Source: a virus (taxonomy: Duplodnaviria > Heunggongvirae > Uroviricota > Caudoviricetes). From it: a stretch of 40,734 nucleotides of DNA. The position numbers and the translations under genes are program-made. The stretch covers positions 1 to 40,734 of the IMG/VR virus record IMGVR_UViG_2718217713_000001; one strand, given 5' to 3'. The notes beneath the pieces were generated by a model. The model did not search any database and had not been told where the DNA came from. It was given only the letters and a program-made list of their open reading frames with translations. Below, piece by piece: positions 271-9,034 of this stretch; positions within the stretch are counted from its first letter, which is position 1, and every line of letters starts with the position of its first letter.

Positions 271-475
271 TTACCGTTAAATCATTTTAAAATCAGTAAG
301 TTGTATCGAGTTTATATGCTTTACTGTCATTAACTTACTGTATGTTGATCCAGTGTATTTAACCTTGATAAACTCAGTCCAGCAACACAAAACCGCAACA
401 CATTGCATTTTGTCCCGTAGAAAAGACTTGTATGTGTGAGCTTGTTTTCTGCGCCTACGCAGATAAGGATTGAGA

Positions 476-1873
476 ATGCCGCGCACTGTAACACATAATC
501 CGGATAGCCCCAATAATGACGATGTTTTAGCCGCATCTGAAAAATGGGACGCCTGTAAACCCCCCTATACCAGCGCACACATGAAAATCTGTGTTGCTGC
601 CGCCAAAATCATCCTCGCTGCTTCCGGTGTGGCTCGCCGTTCCAAATACGAAAAAGAGAACTATCTCCGTATCGATTTCAGCAAAGCCGGTAAGGTTACA
701 TTTTACGCCGAGTTTCCAAAAAAGATGGGCCTCAAAGGTAAAAAGCTCGGCGAGTGGCCGGAGCTCGCTATCCAGCTGGCGCGCGAAAAAGCACTAGGTA
801 TGGCTGACGGTGGACTGCGGGCAGAGTCCGTACATGCAGCGCTGGAAATGTACCGGGATGACCTCAAAGCCAAAGTAGCCCGGCAGAAGCTGAGCCCGGA
901 CAGTTTCACAACCTACGGGGTGCGTATCGACCGGATTAAAGCAACGTTCGGCGAGCGCGAGGTGTTCAGCGACGTAACATACAGTCGGCTGGTGGAAGTG
1001 CTGGACGAGTGGATCGCCACTCGCTCGAACAATAACGCCCTGGAGTTGTTTGCCGAACTCCGTCGGTTCTGGAAGTTCTGCGCACCTACTCTTTGCAACG
1101 GCCGCAATGTTGCCGCCAGTTTGCCAGATGATTATGTTTCCTCCCGCGTACAGAAACCCACCCCCACACGGCTTTTTACCGATATTGAATCAATCGCCCG
1201 ACTCTGGCTCAATGTTGCTGCCTGCACCTCTGTACACCAGAAGAATGCTGTTCGCTTCATGATCATCACTGGCGTTCGTCCGATTAATGTCCATAACCTG
1301 CGCTGGGACTACGTTCACGAGGAGGCTGGTGAAATTGTTTATCCGGAAGGGGTTATCGGCATGCGAGGGGCTATGAAAACACAAAAGGCTTTCCGCCTGC
1401 CGATAACGCCTGAGATCCGGCGGATTATCGACGAGCAGAAAGCCTGGCGTGATTCAGTTCCTGAGTGCAACAGGGATTATGTATTTTTGCAGCCACGTGA
1501 TCCAATGCAGCCATTTTCAAAACGATCACTGGATAAGCTGGTGAAAACATACAGCCCGGACGGGGCTGTAAAAGGAATAAAACATGATGGGACTGTTAAA
1601 GGGAAAGACGGTGCATTTAATACGATGTGCCGTAAATTCCTTAAGAGCAATGTTATTGCCTTGATGAAGGAAAGAGGCTATTCCCGATCAGACCGAAGGG
1701 AAATCAGCCTCCTTTGCCTTCACCACTCCAGCAAGTCAGATGACCCGATGGCAGAACATTACGACTTTTCTGATGAGATTTTACAGGAAGAGATTGCGTT
1801 AAAGCGCGAAGCTTTCGAGGCTCACGAGCGGAGCATACTTGCGCAGGTGGCATTGCTACGGCGGCGAGGTTAA
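476..1873 (+). CDS. int: Tyrosine-type site-specific integrase
   Basis: ORF track 470..1873 (467 aa); first ATG at 476 preceded by AAGGA (465..469); C-terminal region has the R/H/Y pattern of tyrosine recombinases (MCRKF, LCLHH, AEHYDF); position at prophage end next to a host gene. Confidence 0.8.
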   Translation: MPRTVTHNPDSPNNDDVLAASEKWDACKPPYTSAHMKICVAAAKIILAASGVARRSKYEKENYLRIDFSKAGKVTFYAEFPKKMGLKGKKLGEWPELAIQLAREKALGMADGGLRAESVHAALEMYRDDLKAKVARQKLSPDSFTTYGVRIDRIKATFGEREVFSDVTYSRLVEVLDEWIATRSNNNALELFAELRRFWKFCAPTLCNGRNVAASLPDDYVSSRVQKPTPTRLFTDIESIARLWLNVAACTSVHQKNAVRFMIITGVRPINVHNLRWDYVHEEAGEIVYPEGVIGMRGAMKTQKAFRLPITPEIRRIIDEQKAWRDSVPECNRDYVFLQPRDPMQPFSKRSLDKLVKTYSPDGAVKGIKHDGTVKGKDGAFNTMCRKFLKSNVIALMKERGYSRSDRREISLLCLHHSSKSDDPMAEHYDFSDEILQEEIALKREAFEAHERSILAQVALLRRRG

Positions 1874-3534: not shown

Positions 3535-4332
3535 ATGCCCCTGGCGAAAATATTTACAAAGCAAGTTTCTTTATTAACTATGTTTTCAGCGTTAGCTTAT
3601 GCGATGGCATATTATTTTCAGAAAGGTGTCGCATCGTATTATGGCTATCCAGACCTTTTTATTAAAATAGACTTAAATACGCTATTGTATTCGGCTGTGT
3701 GGCTTTTGTTTTTTAGTTTTTTATTTCTCGGCGCCTTATATGCGGCGTTGATGTTTGATTTGAAAGGAAAATATTATGTTCCATTTATTGTATTTATAGT
3801 TGTTATGCTAATGGCTAATATTTGTATAATAGGATTTCATTGGCCTTTTGGTTATTTCTCCGAAACTTCTGTGATGAGTGTTCAGGATATTTTATTATTT
3901 GCTATGCTTTTGTTGAATTATCACAATGTGGTGTCTATGCCAATCCATAGTAAGAGACACGAACATCATATGGAGAGCATTAGAAAATTTGGGAGGCTTG
4001 CAGAGTATAAGAACGTATTTTATTATATCGATTTAAAAATCCTAAAGTCAGCTTTTCCTTTAGGGGTGATAACGTTGTTGATATTGAGCTATACATTCGG
4101 GAAGGTTACTGCATTTAAAAATAACGAATATTATATGGTAGATGGTAGTAATACTAAAGTGTTGCTCAATTCATTTGGTAGTGGTTTTGTTGTTGGTGAT
4201 TGTGAGTCAAATAGCGCAAAATTTGAATTTGTTAATGATTTAAAAGGGATGAGATTCACAATTATGTCCTCTAAAAAGGAAATAGCTAAATTAAAAGAGT
4301 GTTTCGAAATACGTGTTAAAAATACGGATTAA
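3535..4332 (+). CDS. AT-rich multi-pass membrane protein (moron, unknown function)
   Basis: 265-aa ORF with about 5 hydrophobic helices and a soluble C-terminal tail; strong RBS GGAGG; opposite orientation to flanking early genes; low GC compared with neighbours. Confidence 0.55.
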   Translation: MPLAKIFTKQVSLLTMFSALAYAMAYYFQKGVASYYGYPDLFIKIDLNTLLYSAVWLLFFSFLFLGALYAALMFDLKGKYYVPFIVFIVVMLMANICIIGFHWPFGYFSETSVMSVQDILLFAMLLLNYHNVVSMPIHSKRHEHHMESIRKFGRLAEYKNVFYYIDLKILKSAFPLGVITLLILSYTFGKVTAFKNNEYYMVDGSNTKVLLNSFGSGFVVGDCESNSAKFEFVNDLKGMRFTIMSSKKEIAKLKECFEIRVKNTD

Positions 4333-4344
4333 AGCATAAGTCTT

Positions 4345-4632
4345 TTATCCTTTATTGCGGCTTAAAATAATGGCTTCCAGATTTTTGCTATCCAGCACCA
4401 CTACGGTAAAGCCCAGCGCGCGCAACCGTCCGTGTTCGCGCAACTGGTCAGGCCGTGGTGGCTTGCCGGGGGATTTACATTCAACGAAAATGATACGACC
4501 GCCGGGTAGCAGAACAATGCGATCTGGTACCGAGCGGCGACCGGGGGATACGAACTTAAAGGCAACCCCGCCAGCCTTTTTTACTTCAGCGACGAGGTGC
4601 TTTTCGATTAGGTTTTCACGTTCATAGGCCAT
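4345..4632 (-). CDS. VRR-NUC domain nuclease
   Basis: 95 aa; PD-(D/E)xK-type motif PDRIVLL...FVECKSP typical of VRR-NUC; start overlaps upstream stop (TAATG). Confidence 0.8.
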   Translation of the reverse strand: MAYERENLIEKHLVAEVKKAGGVAFKFVSPGRRSVPDRIVLLPGGRIIFVECKSPGKPPRPDQLREHGRLRALGFTVVVLDSKNLEAIILSRNKG

Positions 4633-4826
4633 TAGCTTTCGCCTTCCTGCTTTTTGCGTTTCTTCATGCAGATAGCGCAGTTCTCAGGATGGTCATGCCA
4701 TTCATCAATCCTGATACCTATGAACATCCATTTTCCGCATAGTGATATGGCTTCCCCCGAATTAAAGAAATGTGCTTTTTTTGACAGAGCGGGGAACCCC
4801 CAACCCTTATTATCGATATTAGACAT
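4632..4826 (-). CDS. Hypothetical small protein (Cys/His-rich C-terminus)
   Basis: 64-aa ORF with strong RBS AAGGAGGTG; C-terminal WHDHPENCAICMKK; translationally coupled to VRR-NUC. Confidence 0.45.
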   Translation of the reverse strand: MSNIDNKGWGFPALSKKAHFFNSGEAISLCGKWMFIGIRIDEWHDHPENCAICMKKRKKQEGES

Positions 4827-5010
4827 CGTCCACCTCCTTACGCTTTTCGCGCATGTTCTGCATCAGACAAAAATCAAACCGACGTTCGCTTTGGCCCAGA
4901 CCTGCATCGCCCGGTCGTACCCGCCGGACTGTTCAAGGTGCAAAGCCTCCCGCACAGTCCGGTAATAAAGCGGACTGTCCCGGTATTTAAATGACATAGG
5001 GTTTTTATTC

Positions 5011-5036
5011 CCAAATAAAAAACCCCGCGATGCAGG
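5011..5036 (-). terminator. Intrinsic terminator downstream of the TIR-like gene
   Basis: On the minus strand CCCUGC-AUC-GCGGGG hairpin (one G-U pair) followed by UUUUUUAUUU. Confidence 0.55.
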
Positions 5037-5060
5037 GTTGTAATCAACAATAAGGGGTAA

Positions 5061-5822
5061 TTACGAGGAAGCGTTAGCTATTTGAGCTTGTGTAAATTCG
5101 AAACCAGAATTTTGTAACCGTTGCACTAGACGAGGAACTGTTTCACGTACATGGTCGTTGAAATTCAGATACAAAATCCCGTTAGCATCAGAAGGCTGTT
5201 CTAGGTGCTGTTTCTGAAGGATTGCTACATTGCTGCGCCCTAAGGACGAAAGAAGCATACCCATCTCGAGTACAACGTTCTGTCTTGCGCGGGGTTGGAT
5301 TTCTGCTTCACCGGCGCGCTTTGAGTATCCCATATCATCAGGTGTCAAAAGAACAATCCCGAAACGGGTAGCAGTTTGTCCTTGCCCAATTTCACGTTCA
5401 AGCTCTTCAATAATGGTGAGTCCAGTCCCTCCCGTATTCTGCAAAATGAAATGGTCTGGTAATCCAAGTTTATGAAGGATTAGCTCAAGTTGCTCCTTTG
5501 CAGTATGGTCATGGCCGTGAACAATGAATATCTTTTTGGGGAGCTCAGATGGCTGTTCTACGGCTAGTGGTGTTGCCGTGGGCGGCGTTCCTAAATGGGT
5601 CATTATTGCAGTTTCAACATTGGGACGTTCTTGAGGGTTACCTTGAAACTGAATGGTCCGGGTGGTGTAAAGGTTAACAATTACGCCATTCGTTAAACGA
5701 TAGCAGTCACAAGTCTCACGCTGTTCGTGGGAAAAATTGGTGAACCCACACTCCCCCAAAAAGTCAGGAAAAGATTCTCTCGGGTATGGATAGGTGATCG
5801 GCATTTCAGTTAGTTCCTGCAT
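5061..5822 (-). CDS. TIR-like (COG4271/PF10137-type) domain protein with unknown N-terminal domain
   Basis: 253 aa; C-terminal about 150 aa carries motifs KIFIVHGHD, GIVLLTPDD, ARQNVVLEMG...LGR that I recall for the bacterial TIR-like nucleotide-binding family; N-terminal about 95 aa unrecognised; RBS AAAGGA upstream. Confidence 0.55.
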   Translation of the reverse strand: MQELTEMPITYPYPRESFPDFLGECGFTNFSHEQRETCDCYRLTNGVIVNLYTTRTIQFQGNPQERPNVETAIMTHLGTPPTATPLAVEQPSELPKKIFIVHGHDHTAKEQLELILHKLGLPDHFILQNTGGTGLTIIEELEREIGQGQTATRFGIVLLTPDDMGYSKRAGEAEIQPRARQNVVLEMGMLLSSLGRSNVAILQKQHLEQPSDANGILYLNFNDHVRETVPRLVQRLQNSGFEFTQAQIANASS

Positions 5823-5886
5823 AAGTATTGTTCCTTTAATTTACTCGAATTCAGCATGTCGCCATAGCTCGATAAGGTGAGTTATA

Positions 5887-7950
5887 TCAATCTTTTTTGT
5901 AGTGGTACGCCTCAAAACCGCCAGCGTTCAGTGGGATATCGGGCGCCCATTCGGGGTCAGTGGAGAGAAGCGCGGAAAGCGCTTTATCGTTGAAATCTTC
6001 TGTGTCAGGTGCTTCGGTGATCACCTCGTCGTGTACCGTCAGCACAATGCTGTAACCGGCATCTTCGATAAGCGGCATGTTTCCGGCCAGAATGTCGCGG
6101 GCGGCCGCCTGGGTGATGTTCTCCACCAGCTTTCCGCCGTAGGTTTTGAGTCGTTGCCATTTACGCGAATAAGAGTTAACCCCCATGTAGGTGATATTCC
6201 CTTTTTCGATAACCGGAGACGGGTAGCATACAGCGCGTCCTGATGGTAGCTGTATGCGCAGCCACGCGCCATCGCGGCGGATTTTAAGATAACCGCAATA
6301 CAATGTTTTTTGCGGTGTGGCGATTGCAGTGCGGACGGTGCGCTCCAGTTCGTACCAGAAATCACAGGTCGCGGGATGCGCCCGGCGCCAGAGACGTTTA
6401 AGTGAGTCGCAGGCGATAAATACCCGTTCAGAAAGCCCGTAGGTTGACTTGCGTTTAACCGATTCGTCGTACCAGCTTTTCGCCTCGTGGATAACATCGC
6501 GGGGAATGTTTGGTAGTGCGGCGTTCGCCAGCTCGTCGAGATCGAGACCGTAAACCAGTGCAAAAGTGATGAAGGCCGACACACCACCACCATAACCCAG
6601 ACCGAGTTCCATGACTTTACCGATCTGACGCATGTGTTTATCAACATCATCTGGTGCAATATCGAAAGCTTTTGCATACGCCAGTTTATATAAGTCCGGA
6701 CCCGTTCCGGCGTCGTACTCTCTGAATGCATTCAGTTTCCATTCTTCTCCCGCCAGCCATGCCAGCATACGGCCTTCAATGTTCGACAAGTCACTTACCA
6801 CCAGCTTTTTGCCTGTTGGCGCGATAATGCAGCCACGTAACGCTGAACTGGTTAGTTCCATGATATTGTCAAACAGCAGGTCTGCACATCCGGCTTTCAG
6901 TGCTTCGATGCCTTCGTCTATTTGTTCCTGTTTTAGTGAAGGGCGGGGAAGGTTCTGGGGCTGGAATAGCCGTCCGGCCCAACGACCGGTACGTGACGCC
7001 CCGCAGAACTGTAGCGTACCGCGTAAGCGCCCGTCGTGGCTTACGCCTTTCATCAGTGCCTTGTATTTACTGGTGCTGGTAGTACTGGCCTGCAGGCGGA
7101 TAGCCAGCAGTTCTTTCACGGCAGATGGTAAATCGGGGTCGGCAATACGACGTTCCAGAGTACTGCGTTGCATGTCTGGTAGCTCCACACCGTAGGATTC
7201 AACAATGTGCTTAATCAACGCGTCTCGTTGTGTGGCTGCCTGCACTTCGCCATCAGTCATTTCCTGTGTACGCTTTGCCAGGCGCTTTTGTTCCTGGTCT
7301 ACCGCGTCGATCGCAGCGCGTGCGAGTTCCACGTCCATGCAGACGCCCCGGTCATTGATCTGCTGATCACGATGCCAGAGCGTCAGTTCTGTCCCCTGAT
7401 AATTCCACTTCGGCAGACGTTTATAGACTTCGCGCATTGCCTCGATATCCAGTCCGGCGTAAGCAACAAAGCGCCGCCATTCTTCCGGGTGGGTTTTGCT
7501 GGTGGCACGGCGCAGTTTGCTGTTTTTCGGGCGGGGCTTACAGAACAGCTGGATCAGCGCTTTACCTTCTTTGTCCTTCGCTTTGTCTTGCGGGACGCCT
7601 AGTACTTCGCAGAGTTCCCCCAGAGACCCCGGGAGACCGTGCGCCAGCGCCTGCACCATTGTGTCGCGCCAACGTTCGACTGGCGGTGCCAGGCGCGGCA
7701 TTGCATAACGCAGGACGGTGCGGTCGAAGTGAGAGTTATGGAAATAAAGCAGGGTTTCAGGGTCTGCGATTGCTTCGTATAAGCCGTGTGGAATACCACC
7801 ACCGGCAGTGATATCCCACACGTTTACGGGCCCGTCGTTGATAGCCCATGCGAACAGCATCACTTCAACGCCTTCGGCATACGCATGGGTACCGTTCGTA
7901 ATAGGGATTTCGCAATAGGTTTCTAGGTCACCCCATAGTATATTGGACAT
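5887..7950 (-). CDS. Family A DNA polymerase (T7-like, with 3'-5' exonuclease domain)
   Basis: 687 aa; motif [14 protein letters not shown], motif [17 protein letters not shown], motif C VHDEV; N-terminal exonuclease-like region. Confidence 0.9.
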
Positions 7951-8006
7951 AAAATAACCTTGTGTGATATATGGTTATGTAGGCGTAAATAAACAAGGAG
8001 ACGGCG

Positions 8007-8276
8007 GTGTTTAGCTTTGGTATCGGAATACTTTCATTGATAGGTATTATTGCTTTCCCCATTCTTTATATTTTAGGGAGAATAGTTCGGGCTGGTGGCG
8101 CATGGCTCGAACGTGAAGAAGGTCCTAAGGATCGTGTTCTTCCCAAAATTATAATTTTTGCGCTTATTGGGTTCTTTCTTGGGTGTTTGGCTCAGCCTGT
8201 ATGGGACAGCATTTCGGCATGTAGAGACTATGGCAATCCAATAGGGAAATGTCTTTTTAAATTCAATGAATTTTAA
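8007..8276 (+). CDS. Small AT-rich membrane protein (moron, unknown function)
   Basis: 89-aa ORF, GTG start 8 nt after AGGAG, two hydrophobic helices; opposite strand to the replication operon. Confidence 0.45.
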   Translation: MFSFGIGILSLIGIIAFPILYILGRIVRAGGAWLEREEGPKDRVLPKIIIFALIGFFLGCLAQPVWDSISACRDYGNPIGKCLFKFNEF

Positions 8277-8343
8277 TTTTTAGTATTGCGGTAGGCTGGT
8301 TTGGATAACTATTTTCTTAAGCCAGCCTTTGTTATAAGAAATA

Positions 8344-8982
8344 TTAAGCATCTACCCCTTCGTCAGAAGGGAGGCCGATCATTTCGTTGAGAGTTTCGCG
8401 TCGTATAGCTGGCGGAAGCGGAGCAGATGGTGCATCGGCTGGCAGAAGTTCTTTAGCTTCAGGCCACTCTTCCAGCAGGCGCTTAACTGTGCGCACTTTA
8501 CTGAGTGCAGCGCTGACATTCTGTCGAATGTCTGACTCATCGCTCTGTATCTGCTCATAAAGTGCATCAAACCCGTAAAACTCTGTAACTAGAGGGTCAT
8601 TTGCCAGAAGGGTAAATTCCCCCGGCGCGATTTTGTGAATATGGTCTGGTGACCCTGATTCATATCCTCGATAGTTACCGTTGAAATAGACGGTAACCCG
8701 AGAACCTGCCAGATTCAGACACATGTAACACTCTTTCCTGATAATATTATTGGCGGTTTTTAATGCTTCGGGGAATTTTGATACCAGTGTTTCTATTTTT
8801 TTTATAATTTTTAATATTTCAGCTTCTTTCTCTACGCCCCCGATAGCTGCAAGCCGAACACGTTCGGCCCATTCAACACGAGCAGCTCGTAGTGCTGATT
8901 TACGTTTGGGGATACCCGCTTTCTCAAGTGCGTTATTGATGATTTGAGTTTTAAGGTGATTAGTTAATACGGGCTGTGACAT
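8344..8982 (-). CDS. Hypothetical phage protein
   Basis: ORF track 8344..8997; internal ATG at 8982 has the better RBS (GAGGGAAAG); no recognisable motif. Confidence 0.55.
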   Translation of the reverse strand: MSQPVLTNHLKTQIINNALEKAGIPKRKSALRAARVEWAERVRLAAIGGVEKEAEILKIIKKIETLVSKFPEALKTANNIIRKECYMCLNLAGSRVTVYFNGNYRGYESGSPDHIHKIAPGEFTLLANDPLVTEFYGFDALYEQIQSDESDIRQNVSAALSKVRTVKRLLEEWPEAKELLPADAPSAPLPPAIRRETLNEMIGLPSDEGVDA

Positions 8983-9034
8983 TATTCTTTCCCTCATGAG
9001 ATACCCCCAGCACGTAGCTGGGGGATGAATATTT

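What the first reader, a model, noticed from the sequence alone, without database searches (positions are those of the whole stretch)
5011..5886. TIR-like domain protein with an unknown N-terminal domain embedded in the phage early-left operon
The 253-aa product of 5061..5822 has a C-terminal region with the hallmarks I associate with the bacterial TIR-like family COG4271/PF10137 (FIVHG.D, LLTPDD, ARQNV..E.G..LGR with a conserved Glu), fused to an unrecognised about 95-aa N-terminal domain. It is not a replication function, yet sits between the family-A polymerase and the VRR-NUC nuclease and has its own intrinsic terminator directly downstream (5011..5036). TIR-like domains are effectors or signal generators in several antiphage systems, so this could be a phage-carried defence (superinfection-exclusion) or counter-defence gene.
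Basis: partly seen in the sequence, partly recalled or inferred. Interest (0 to 1): 0.7.

Follow-up and report, generated by a model that had tools for sequence, protein, structure and literature searches.

The report
Prophage-borne TIR NADase defence candidate
A temperate E. coli phage carries an optional gene that fuses a small RNase H3-like "TBP-fold" sensor domain to a TIR NAD-cleaving domain; it is most likely a one-gene suicide defence against other phages, already listed as an untested candidate (PADLOC PDC-S35), so it is only moderately novel.

Summary

The whole protein matches the untested PADLOC candidate PDC-S35 (E=2e-108). RefSeq already annotates it as a TIR domain-containing protein.

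The gene is optional cargo. A ~0.9-kb module (about 5001..5898) is present in about 47 of 158 related E. coli prophages. In others the slot is empty or holds different genes.

The same N-domain is also fused to anti-phage dCTP deaminases and to a multi-pass membrane protein, which suggests a portable sensor.

Best reading: a single-gene abortive-infection NADase, not counter-defence. The trigger (hybrid nucleic acid or phage protein) and the timing of expression are unresolved.

The parts
5061..5822 (-). CDS of 253 aa (stop codon 5061..5063): two-domain TIR-like protein, PADLOC PDC-S35 / PHROG 16442 family
   Evidence: ORF list and sequence. PADLOC PDLC05003 E=2e-108 over aa 10-253. PHROG 16442 E=5e-108. 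More than 2,700 homologues of about 250 aa with the same architecture.
5589..5801 (-). N-terminal TBP-like domain, aa 8-78 (short beta, alpha, four beta strands, alpha): putative sensor
5640..5669 (-). Hairpin motif Y52-T-T54-R-T56-I-Q-F-Q60-G61. It has the same spacing as the hybrid-contact residues Tyr43/Ser45/Ser47/Gly52 of T. ammonificans RNase H3.
   Evidence: Residue roles come from PMC4132731. Alignment to Aquifex RNase HIII. Family conservation: Y/F/W 41/41, T54 38/41, T56 37/41, Q60 and G61 41/41.
5538..5588 (-). Linker, aa 79-95: Pro/Thr/Ala-rich, variable in length and sequence
   Evidence: pLDDT below 50 for aa 80-92. The region is length-variable and unconserved in the family alignment.
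5064..5537 (-). C-terminal TIR-like domain (PF10137), aa 96-253, including a C-terminal helix
5265..5267 (-). Codon of Glu186 in the invariant motif R-x-R-Q-N-V-V-L-E-x-G: predicted catalytic glutamate
   Evidence: Aligned to the Glu of RDNVVFEFG in Cap12 (7un8, 9lmq) and of ARDNVHLEFG in PycTIR (8jsj). Invariant in 41/41 sequences. The catalytic role of this Glu is taken from established knowledge of TIR NADases and was not tested here.
5011..5039 (-). Intrinsic terminator: stem-loop 5039..5021 plus T-run to about 5011
   Evidence: Terminator scan and RNA fold. Hairpin and T-run are conserved with compensatory stem changes in alleles L004 and L008 and in Serratia L021.
5823..5886 (-). 64-nt spacer between the polA stop and the TIR start, with RBS AGGA at 5832..5835. 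No recognisable sigma-70 promoter.
   Evidence: Sequence. Promoter scan found none in 4300..8400. Alignment of spacers from the other alleles shows no conserved -35/-10 pair.
5001..5898 (.). The insertion/deletion module as a whole (TIR gene, spacer, terminator and a variant 3' end of polA), relative to related prophages with an empty slot
   Evidence: blastn break-points against L003 and L006, where the polA stop lies 5 nt from the ANR start. Homology runs up to about window 5000 and resumes at about 5899.
5887..7950 (-). Flanking conserved gene: family-A DNA polymerase (context, not part of the module)
4819..4997 (-). Flanking ANR-family regulator remnant (pseudogene) immediately downstream of the terminator
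   Evidence: RefSeq marks the gene as frameshifted in E. coli 14EC029, whose DNA is 100% identical to the window over 4300-7000. There is a gap relative to L003.

Best explanation
This is an accessory, horizontally mobile, single-gene anti-phage module carried by a temperate E. coli myovirus-type prophage integrated next to yfhL. The protein is a sensor-effector fusion with three parts:
- a flexible linker,
- a C-terminal PF10137 TIR domain with an intact catalytic-type glutamate.

Proposed mechanism, all inferred:
1. In uninfected cells the protein is monomeric or auto-inhibited.
2. On infection by another phage, the N-domain binds an infection-specific ligand that presents many binding sites. 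I favour duplex nucleic acid of the RNA/DNA-hybrid type, such as replication-priming R-loops. A multimeric phage protein is a serious alternative.
3. Ligand binding brings TIR domains into head-to-tail oligomers. In Cap12 TIR-STING, PycTIR, Cat1, SpbK and SPARTA, such oligomers create the composite NADase site.
4. NAD+ is hydrolysed, metabolism stops, and the infection aborts, which protects the lysogen population.

Shown here: domain identities, conservation of catalytic and motif residues, cargo status, terminator, lack of a partner gene, and sharing of the N-domain with other defence effectors.

Not shown: NADase activity, oligomerisation, the trigger, the defence phenotype, and when the gene is expressed.
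For: TIR effector:
- PF10137 E=2.9e-31.
- Profile hits to Cap12 and PycTIR with the Glu aligned.
- Extreme purifying selection, dN/dS 0.02-0.03 with saturated synonymous sites.

Defence context:
- PADLOC PDC-S35 E=2e-108. PDC systems are candidates derived by guilt-by-embedding in known defence systems (10.1101/2024.01.29.577857).
- The gene is present in 47 of 5,426 E. coli genomes. 158 genomes carry the related prophage polymerase region.
- In relatives the slot directly after the polymerase is empty or holds other genes: an ATP-binding protein, YfbU plus a hypothetical, or a 68-aa hypothetical. Further variable genes (DUF4406, DUF7446, a SAM methyltransferase) lie between the ANR gene and VRR-NUC.
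- Homologues lie in integrase-bounded islands beside an ABC-ATPase, Mrr and a PemK toxin-antitoxin pair, next to IS elements, in an integron-like cassette array, and in different slots of related prophages. No partner gene is conserved.
- Only 4 of 50,697 phage records encode a relative.
- A survey of E. coli TIR proteins found 12 of 32 tested clusters defensive, including single-protein systems with variable N-termini and a shared C-terminal TIR (PMC11350192).

Sensor domain:
- The Y-x-T-x-T-x4-G motif matches the spacing of the hybrid-contact residues.
- hhalign local P=7e-5.
- The same N-domain is fused to anti-phage dCTP deaminases (PADLOC dCTPase E=1e-46; NCBIfam NF041025 up to E=1.5e-90), to a multi-TM protein and to other unknown C-terminal domains.
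- The N-domain evolves faster than the TIR domain: 49% against 89% identity between alleles, and all 4 replacements relative to phage 689R2 lie in the N-domain.
- TBP-like domains also occur on RnlA-type HEPN toxins and on 1.5% of bacterial Schlafen defence nucleases (PMC3710099; PMC13056530).
Against: No experiment exists for this family in the searched literature. PDC-S35 is explicitly untested.

No sigma-70-like promoter precedes the gene. It sits 64 nt after polA in a lytic early operon. Expression in the lysogen, which a classical prophage defence gene needs, is therefore unproven. It is also unexplained how the phage would avoid triggering the protein on its own induction.

Sequence similarity of the N-domain to RNase H3 and RnlA is not significant in database searches (E 0.002-0.17). 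In profile-profile comparison it covers only 24 columns.

The N-domain is slightly acidic on average, and the window allele has a net charge of -5. This is atypical for a nucleic-acid binder.

The fast-evolving N-domain fits a protein trigger at least as well as a nucleic-acid trigger.

The alternative cargo genes at the same slot are not recognisable defence genes in PADLOC.
Confidence: 0.55

Rival explanations
1. Same abortive-infection TIR NADase, but the TBP-like N-domain recognises a phage protein (for example portal, tail or capsid protein) rather than nucleic acid. On this view the conserved hairpin motif is structural.
For: [quoted passage not shown] At least TIR-V and TIR-IX share a superimposable C-terminal region while their N-termini differ (PMC11350192). 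The N-domain diverges much faster than the TIR domain. The N-domain is acidic. SpbK, another TIR Abi protein, is activated by the phage SPbeta protein YonE (PMC12847820 abstract).
Against: The residues nearly invariant across the family are exactly those equivalent to the RNase H3 hybrid contacts. The same N-domain is reused on dCTP deaminase, membrane and other effectors across distant taxa, which suggests a generic rather than phage-specific ligand.
Confidence: 0.3
2. A pro-phage function in the lytic cycle: counter-defence or host takeover. The TIR would be made with the early replication genes to remodel NAD+ pools, destroy NAD-derived immune signals, or exclude competitors or satellites only during lytic growth.
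For: The gene lies 64 nt downstream of polA with no detectable promoter of its own. The same phage lineage in E. coli, Serratia and Salmonella has the gene in its early region, in two different slots. The module travels in the virion genomes of vB_EcoM-689R2, 611R5 and 606R2.
Against: The gene is absent from about 70% of related prophages. It is almost absent from phage genomes generally, 4 of 50,697. Most family members are in bacterial chromosomes, islands and cassettes outside prophages. The N-domain is shared with the anti-phage dCTP deaminase family (NCBIfam NF041025). I know of no TIR-domain anti-defence protein.
Confidence: 0.1
3. A signal-generating TIR, Thoeris-like, that makes a cADPR-type messenger for an effector encoded elsewhere.
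For: Many bacterial TIRs are signal synthases (10.64898/2025.12.03.692087).
Against: No conserved neighbouring effector in any of eight independent genomic contexts. The PF10137 clade is the effector-type clade of Cap12 and PycTIR. Stand-alone TIRs were deliberately excluded from the signalling survey as likely NAD+ depleters.
Confidence: 0.04

Closest known systems
Cap12 TIR-STING (CBASS effector; PDB 7un8, 9lmq) and PycTIR (Pycsar effector; PDB 8jsj)
   Different: The sensor here is N-terminal and TBP-like, not a STING or cNMP-binding domain. There is no cyclase or CD-NTase gene nearby. NCBIfam Cap12 models score 30-35 bits against a cut-off of 450. The protein is therefore not a CBASS or Pycsar component.
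PADLOC phage defence candidate PDC-S35 / PHROG 16442
   Same: Full-length membership, E=2e-108 and 5e-108.
   Different: These are catalogue entries only. PDC systems are untested predictions, the PHROG is annotated 'unknown function', and no paper mentions PDC-S35.
[quoted passage not shown] 2024, PMC11350192)
   Same: E. coli single-gene TIR proteins that defend by abortive infection and need the TIR active site. TIR-V and TIR-IX share a C-terminal region and differ at the N-terminus.
   Different: Identity with this family could not be checked because the accession list (Supplementary Data 2) is not held. Their reported triggers are portal and tail-fibre proteins, not nucleic acid.
SPARTA (short pAgo / TIR-APAZ)
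   Same: A TIR NADase switched on by oligomerisation after recognition of an RNA/DNA heteroduplex. The TIR fold is matched by Foldseek (8isy, 8u72). This is the closest analogue to the mechanism I propose.
   Different: SPARTA needs a guide-loaded Argonaute partner and is sequence-specific. Here a 70-aa domain in the same polypeptide would recognise hybrid geometry without a guide. That remains hypothetical.
RNase H3 N-terminal domain (Pfam DUF3378) and the RnlA/LsoA NTD/NRD domains (Pfam RnlA_toxin)
   Different: All HMM scores are below family thresholds. The attached catalytic domain is TIR, not RNase H or HEPN. Hybrid binding is untested and the domain is acidic.
Anti-phage dCTP deaminase (NCBIfam NF041025; PADLOC dCTPase)
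   Same: A subset (P0271, P0273, P0275, P0256, P0201) carries the same N-terminal domain, with the motif LNWYPSTGTINFQG, in front of the deaminase core.
   Different: The effector chemistry differs: dCTP depletion rather than NAD+ cleavage. The trigger of that system is listed as unknown in a 2026 review.

Membership tests
Pfam PF10137 CAP12/Pycsar-type TIR domain (STIR clan) | HMM score above the curated gathering threshold | tested here: met
   108.4 bits against 24.7, E=2.9e-31, profile positions 1-118 of 119.
Pfam PF10137 CAP12/Pycsar-type TIR domain (STIR clan) | Flavodoxin-like TIR fold | tested here: met
Pfam PF10137 CAP12/Pycsar-type TIR domain (STIR clan) | Conserved catalytic glutamate | tested here: met
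   Glu186 is aligned to the Glu of RDNVVFEFG in Cap12 and PycTIR and is invariant in 41/41 sequences.
Pfam PF10137 CAP12/Pycsar-type TIR domain (STIR clan) | NAD+ hydrolase activity dependent on oligomerisation | not testable with these tools
   Needs a biochemical assay.
CBASS Cap12 / Pycsar PycTIR effectors | Cyclic-nucleotide receptor domain (STING, SAVED or cNMP-binding) fused to the TIR | tested here: not met
   No such domain in Pfam. NCBIfam Cap12 equivalogs score 34.8 and 30.5 bits against a cut-off of 450, and only the TIR part matches.
CBASS Cap12 / Pycsar PycTIR effectors | Adjacent CD-NTase or pyrimidine cyclase gene | tested here: not met
   Neighbours are polA and an ANR remnant in the window. 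No cyclase is present in any homologue context.
PADLOC PDC-S35 (phage defence candidate, single gene) | Full-length match to the PDC-S35 HMMs | tested here: met
   PDLC05003 E=2e-108 over aa 10-253. Four further PDC-S35 models match at E 1e-43 to 1e-56.
PADLOC PDC-S35 (phage defence candidate, single gene) | Demonstrated anti-phage activity | not testable with these tools
   PDC systems are untested by definition. No paper names PDC-S35.
Thoeris-type TIR signalling systems | TIR gene in an operon with a signal-activated effector (ThsA-like) | tested here: not met
   No conserved partner in eight contexts.
RNase H3 N-domain / TBP-like (Pfam DUF3378 PF11858; RnlA_toxin PF15935) | HMM score above the gathering threshold | tested here: not met
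   Best scores are RnlA_toxin 18.8 bits and DUF3378 13.8 bits, against a cut-off of 27. Only 4 of 10 family members gave any such hit. PDB profile E-values are 0.12-0.17.
RNase H3 N-domain / TBP-like (Pfam DUF3378 PF11858; RnlA_toxin PF15935) | Monopartite TBP-like fold: beta-sheet covered on one face by two helices | tested here: met
RNase H3 N-domain / TBP-like (Pfam DUF3378 PF11858; RnlA_toxin PF15935) | Hybrid-contact residues: aromatic, two Ser/Thr and Gly on the beta-hairpin | tested here: met
   Y52, T54, T56 and G61 have the spacing of Ta-RNase H3 Tyr43, Ser45, Ser47 and Gly52 and are 90-100% conserved. hhalign local P=7e-5 over this hairpin.
RNase H3 N-domain / TBP-like (Pfam DUF3378 PF11858; RnlA_toxin PF15935) | Specific binding of RNA/DNA hybrid | not testable with these tools
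   Needs EMSA or anisotropy. The net charge of -5 argues for caution.
Prophage accessory cargo ('moron'-type module) | Presence/absence polymorphism at a fixed position between conserved phage genes | tested here: met
   158 E. coli genomes share the flanks and 47 carry the gene in two alleles. Some relatives have an empty slot and others carry different genes.
Prophage accessory cargo ('moron'-type module) | Own promoter and own terminator | tested here: inconclusive
   The terminator is present and conserved. No sigma-70-like promoter was found. GC content is only mildly lower than the flanks, 45-48% against 50-57%.

The most novel reading that the evidence does not exclude
A guide-free, single-polypeptide innate sensor of RNA/DNA hybrids. 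On this reading, an RNase H3-type TBP-like domain reads hybrid geometry, for example phage replication R-loops or primers. By lining up along the duplex it nucleates a TIR NADase filament, a protein-only counterpart of SPARTA. The same roughly 70-aa domain would be a portable hybrid-sensing cassette plugged onto TIR, dCTP deaminase, HEPN (RnlA/LsoA), membrane and other effectors. That would give a common trigger logic for several defence families whose activating signal is unknown.
Probability: 0.2. Interest if true: 0.75.

Novelty: new variant of a known kind. Interest (0 to 1): 0.45.

Why it matters
TIR NADases are a central effector class of bacterial, plant and animal immunity. What is usually unknown is how each one senses infection.

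This family is widespread: more than 2,700 clusters at 90% identity, across Proteobacteria and beyond. It is extremely conserved and is a single gene, so it is easy to test.

If its N-domain really senses RNA/DNA hybrids or another generic replication intermediate, that would add a new pattern-recognition principle. It would also immediately suggest the trigger for the subset of anti-phage dCTP deaminases, and for the other effectors that carry the same domain.

For phage biology, the locus documents a cargo hotspot directly after the polymerase gene of a common E. coli temperate phage lineage, with at least two further variable slots nearby.

If the protein turns out to be a protein-triggered Abi system, it is one more ordinary member of the E. 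coli TIR repertoire.

Tried and rejected
- Literature search for 'PDC-S35' found no papers. 'PF10137' found only surveys that excluded stand-alone TIRs or dealt with eukaryotes. Searches on TIR plus RNA-DNA hybrid found no description of this architecture.
- Whether Wang et al. 2024 tested this family could not be decided. The supplement with accessions is not held, and no later paper reuses the names TIR-V or TIR-IX.
- I tried to raise the N-domain/RNase H3 similarity to significance with a broader 53-sequence profile. The E-value stayed at 0.17 and a spurious LeuRS hit appeared at the same level. Profile-profile alignment in global mode gave 2.5-4% probability. Only local mode gave a 24-column match.
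- The Foldseek afdb50 library was unavailable.
- The sigma-70 promoter scan found nothing. Rfam found no RNA family in the window. Repeat search found no direct repeats flanking the module, so there is no transposition or att signature.
- PADLOC and Pfam scans of the neighbouring variable genes and of the alternative cargo at the slot found no known defence family, apart from a weak partial DrmA-like hit for the ATP-binding protein.
- Rejected as a CBASS or Pycsar component: no sensor domain and no cyclase.
- Rejected as a Thoeris-like signalling TIR: no partner gene.
- Rejected as a core replication gene: absent from most relatives.
- Rejected as a decaying ORF: dN/dS 0.02-0.18.
- The opposite-strand ORF 5230..5475 (81 aa) lies wholly inside the TIR coding sequence, and a comparable opposite-strand call appears inside the Serratia homologue. 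I treated it as spurious and did not test it.
Full report
**1. The observation**

The ORF at 5061..5822 on the minus strand is real. It is 253 aa with an ATG start, and AGGA lies 9 nt upstream.

Its C-terminal half matches Pfam PF10137 (CAP12/Pycsar effector TIR domain) at E=2.9e-31, 108 bits against a threshold of 24.7, covering essentially the whole model.

They fall in invariant columns of a 41-sequence alignment of homologues that share 51-93% identity with the window protein.

The gene lies 64 nt downstream of a family-A DNA polymerase (5887..7950). It lies upstream of a frameshifted ANR-family regulator remnant, a 64-aa ORF and a VRR-NUC gene.

An 8-bp GC-rich hairpin (5039..5021) with a T-run follows the stop codon. 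The generic terminator scan is not enriched in this region. However, the hairpin plus T-run is retained with compensatory stem changes behind two divergent E. coli alleles and a Serratia orthologue, so I accept it as a terminator.

**2. What the window is**

The window is a temperate phage integrated next to yfhL. It carries an integrase (470..1873) and an early-left replication block, followed by repressor, lysis and myovirus-type structural genes. The replication block comprises an SNF2 helicase, VRR-NUC, polA, Nmad5, an Enc34-type ssDNA-binding protein and a DUF2800 nuclease.

The 4300-7000 segment is 100% identical to E. coli 14EC029. It is 96% identical to three sequenced phages, vB_EcoM-689R2, 611R5 and 606R2, whose records already call the gene a 'TIR-like domain-containing protein'.

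**3. Cargo status**

- 158 of 5,426 complete E. coli genomes carry the related polymerase region.
- The TIR gene is found in 47 genomes, always as a single chromosomal copy.
- 37 carry allele A (95-100% identical in DNA). 10 carry allele B (about 76% identical in DNA over the TIR-domain half; 71-72% in protein for two alleles compared).
- In other relatives the polymerase stop codon is 5 nt from the ANR start, so the slot is empty (L003, L006).
- In still others the slot holds a 68-aa ORF, YfbU plus a hypothetical, or an opposite-strand ATP-binding protein.

Break-point mapping places the module at about 5001..5898. That span is the gene plus its spacer, its terminator and a variant last few codons of polA. 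No flanking direct repeats were found.

A Serratia prophage has the gene in the same slot. A Salmonella prophage of the same replication-module family has a 55%-identical homologue in a different slot, upstream of polA.

Outside prophages, homologues sit in these contexts:
- a Vibrio cholerae integrase island next to an ABC-type ATPase;
- a metagenome-assembled-genome (MAG) island with Mrr and a PemK toxin-antitoxin pair;
- beside IS elements in Guyparkeria;
- an integron-cassette-like array in V. parahaemolyticus.

No neighbouring gene is conserved across these contexts, so this is a single-gene unit. Only 4 of 50,697 phage records encode a relative.

**4. The TIR domain**

- A family profile finds Cap12 TIR-STING (7un8, 9lmq) and PycTIR (8jsj) in the PDB. 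Glu186 of the invariant motif RxRQNVVLExG aligns to the glutamate of their RDNVVFEFG motif.
- The AlphaFold model has mean pLDDT 76, with 55-89 in the TIR part.
- The protein is not a CBASS or Pycsar component. There is no STING, SAVED or cNMP-binding domain, the NCBIfam Cap12 equivalogs score about 30-35 bits against 450, and no cyclase gene is nearby.
- The domain is unusually constrained. Between alleles A and B synonymous sites are saturated, yet the TIR domain is 89% identical (dN/dS 0.02-0.03).

**5. The N-terminal domain**

AlphaFold gives a confident fold (pLDDT about 86-90): a short beta strand, a helix, four beta strands and a second helix, over aa 8-78. A disordered, length-variable linker (aa 79-95) follows.

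Evidence that it is a TBP-like domain of the RNase H3 / RnlA type:
- Independently, sub-threshold HMM hits point the same way. Pfam RnlA_toxin (E 0.002-0.016) hits three of ten family members, and DUF3378, the RNase HIII N-domain model (E 0.069), hits one of those three.
- The two best PDB sequence hits of the N-domain profile are RNase HIII (E 0.12) and the N-repeated domain of LsoA (E 0.16).
- I retrieved real Bacillaceae RNase HIII sequences, using a bait recalled from memory that turned out 96% identical to a database entry. hhalign against them gives a local match with P=7e-5 and 56-63% probability.

Limits of that evidence:
- The hhalign match covers only 24 columns, the beta3-beta4 hairpin. 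The global alignment is not supported.
- A broader profile did not improve the PDB E-values.
- I therefore rate common ancestry with the RNase H3 / RnlA TBP-like domain as likely, about 0.6-0.65, but not proven.

The hairpin is informative. In T. ammonificans RNase H3 the N-domain contacts the hybrid as follows (PMC4132731):
- Tyr43 stacks on a deoxyribose.
- Ser45 and Ser47 bind a DNA phosphate.
- The Gly52 backbone amide binds an RNA 2'-OH.
- The isolated domain binds only the hybrid.

The window protein has Y52, T54, T56 and G61 with identical spacing. These positions are Y/F/W in 41/41, T in 38/41, T in 37/41 and G in 41/41 sequences. A basic residue at position 42 is present in 39/41.

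Against a nucleic-acid role, the domain is slightly acidic on average (mean net charge -1.4) and is -5 in the window allele.

**6. The N-domain is portable**

A profile search of 1.84 billion representative proteins found 740 hits at E<=1e-3.

Besides TIR fusions, the same domain precedes several other modules:
- Anti-phage dCTP deaminases P0256, P0201, P0271, P0273 and P0275. These match PADLOC dCTPase at E=1e-46 and NCBIfam NF041025 at up to E=1.5e-90, starting at profile position 1 after the N-domain.
- A multi-pass membrane protein (P0195).
- Unknown C-terminal domains (P0157, P0200, P0246).
- A tandem arrangement of two N-domains (P0172).

TBP-like domains are also reported on RnlA-type HEPN toxins (PMC3710099) and on 1.5% of bacterial Schlafen defence nucleases (PMC13056530).

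One N-terminal module attached to interchangeable toxic effectors is the classic architecture of abortive-infection sensors.

The N-domain also evolves faster than the TIR domain. It is 49% identical between alleles against 89% for the TIR domain (dN/dS 0.18 against 0.02-0.03). All four replacements relative to phage 689R2 fall in the N-domain.

**7. Mechanism**

I conclude that the gene is an accessory single-gene defence module. A TBP-like sensor would drive oligomerisation of a PF10137 TIR NADase, which depletes NAD+ and aborts infection.

- Shown here: domain identities, conserved catalytic and motif residues, cargo behaviour, absence of a partner gene, domain portability and the terminator.
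- Inferred: enzymatic activity, oligomerisation, the trigger and the phenotype.
- For the trigger I give about 0.25-0.3 to an RNA/DNA hybrid or related duplex, and about 0.3 to a phage protein. [quoted passage not shown]

The main difficulty for a classical 'moron expressed in the lysogen' picture is transcription. I find no promoter, so the gene is probably co-transcribed with polA. That leaves two open questions: whether it is expressed in lysogeny, and how the phage avoids self-activation when induced. This keeps a pro-lytic or counter-defence role alive at about 0.1.

**8. Comparison with what is known, and novelty**

- The family is already catalogued as PADLOC PDC-S35, one of a set of explicitly untested candidates, and as PHROG 16442, 'unknown function'.
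- GenBank and RefSeq already annotate it as TIR.
- A published E. coli-wide screen shows that many single-gene TIR proteins defend.
- I found no description in the searched literature of three points: the identity of the N-domain as an RNase H3 / RnlA-type TBP-like domain, the conservation of the hybrid-contact motif, and its sharing with dCTP deaminases and other effectors.

I therefore class the finding as a new variant of a known kind, a TIR NADase effector with a new type of sensor. Interest is moderate at 0.45. It would be higher only if hybrid sensing is demonstrated.

Noticed in passing
window 3535..4332 (+): A 265-aa multi-pass membrane ORF lies in a sharply AT-rich island (GC 31-34% against 50-57% in the flanks), on the opposite strand, between the SNF2 helicase and VRR-NUC. 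It has no Pfam or PADLOC hit. Related prophages carry different + strand genes here (a DUF6338 protein and various hypotheticals). This is a second cargo hotspot.
   Followed up: partly
window 8007..8276 (+); compare L004:5000-5461: An 89-aa two-TM ORF lies in a third variable slot just beyond the polA start. Relatives hold a 270-bp hypothetical, a roughly 630-bp hypothetical, or, in E. coli TUM1880, a SIR2 family protein. That prophage also carries allele B of the TIR gene.
   Followed up: partly
window 4819..4997 (-): The ANR-family regulator gene immediately downstream of the TIR terminator is a pseudogene here. RefSeq marks it frameshifted in DNA identical to this part of the window, and there is a gap of about 37 bp relative to L003. 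It is intact in the allele-B prophages L004 and L008. The terminator also sits upstream of VRR-NUC and the helicase, so the insertion may attenuate the rest of the early operon.
   Followed up: partly
L023:4567-5301, L024:4477-5211 (Salmonella); L021:6001-6762 (Serratia): The same phage replication-module lineage (DUF2800, Enc34 SSB, polA, SNF2) carries PDC-S35 homologues in other genera. The Serratia copy is in the same slot after polA. The Salmonella copy is in a different slot upstream of Bro-N and polA. This suggests repeated capture of the gene, or movement within the lineage.
   Followed up: partly
L018-L020:6001-6762 (Vibrio parahaemolyticus): The homologue sits in a long array of small same-strand ORFs (LysE, DinB, acetyltransferase, APH and many hypotheticals). 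The array looks like a chromosomal integron cassette array.
   Followed up: no
window 5064..5537 (-) and alignment A1: The TIR domain of this family is unusually invariant. About 70 of 158 columns are identical across Enterobacterales, Vibrio, Guyparkeria and a Vicinamibacterales MAG. These include the HGHD, EQLE, TPDD and PSD motifs, which are not obviously part of the canonical TIR active site. What constrains them is unexplained.
   Followed up: partly
P0195, P0157, P0200, P0246, P0172 (proteins found with the N-domain profile): The N-domain is also fused to a roughly 340-aa multi-TM region, to three different C-terminal regions with no Pfam, NCBIfam or PADLOC match, and occurs as a tandem pair. 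These may be further uncharacterised effector families.
   Followed up: partly
window about 8000..9000 compared with L017 (E. coli 14EC029): The window is mosaic relative to 14EC029, the strain that is identical to it over 4300-7000. The window has an Nmad5 gene (8344..8997, Pfam E=1e-56) plus the 89-aa ORF. 14EC029 is annotated with a single 630-bp + strand gene there.
   Followed up: no
window 4901..4915 and 5022..5036: A 15-nt inverted repeat (87% complementary) links one arm of the terminator stem to a site inside the ANR remnant 106 nt away. It is probably chance.
   Followed up: no
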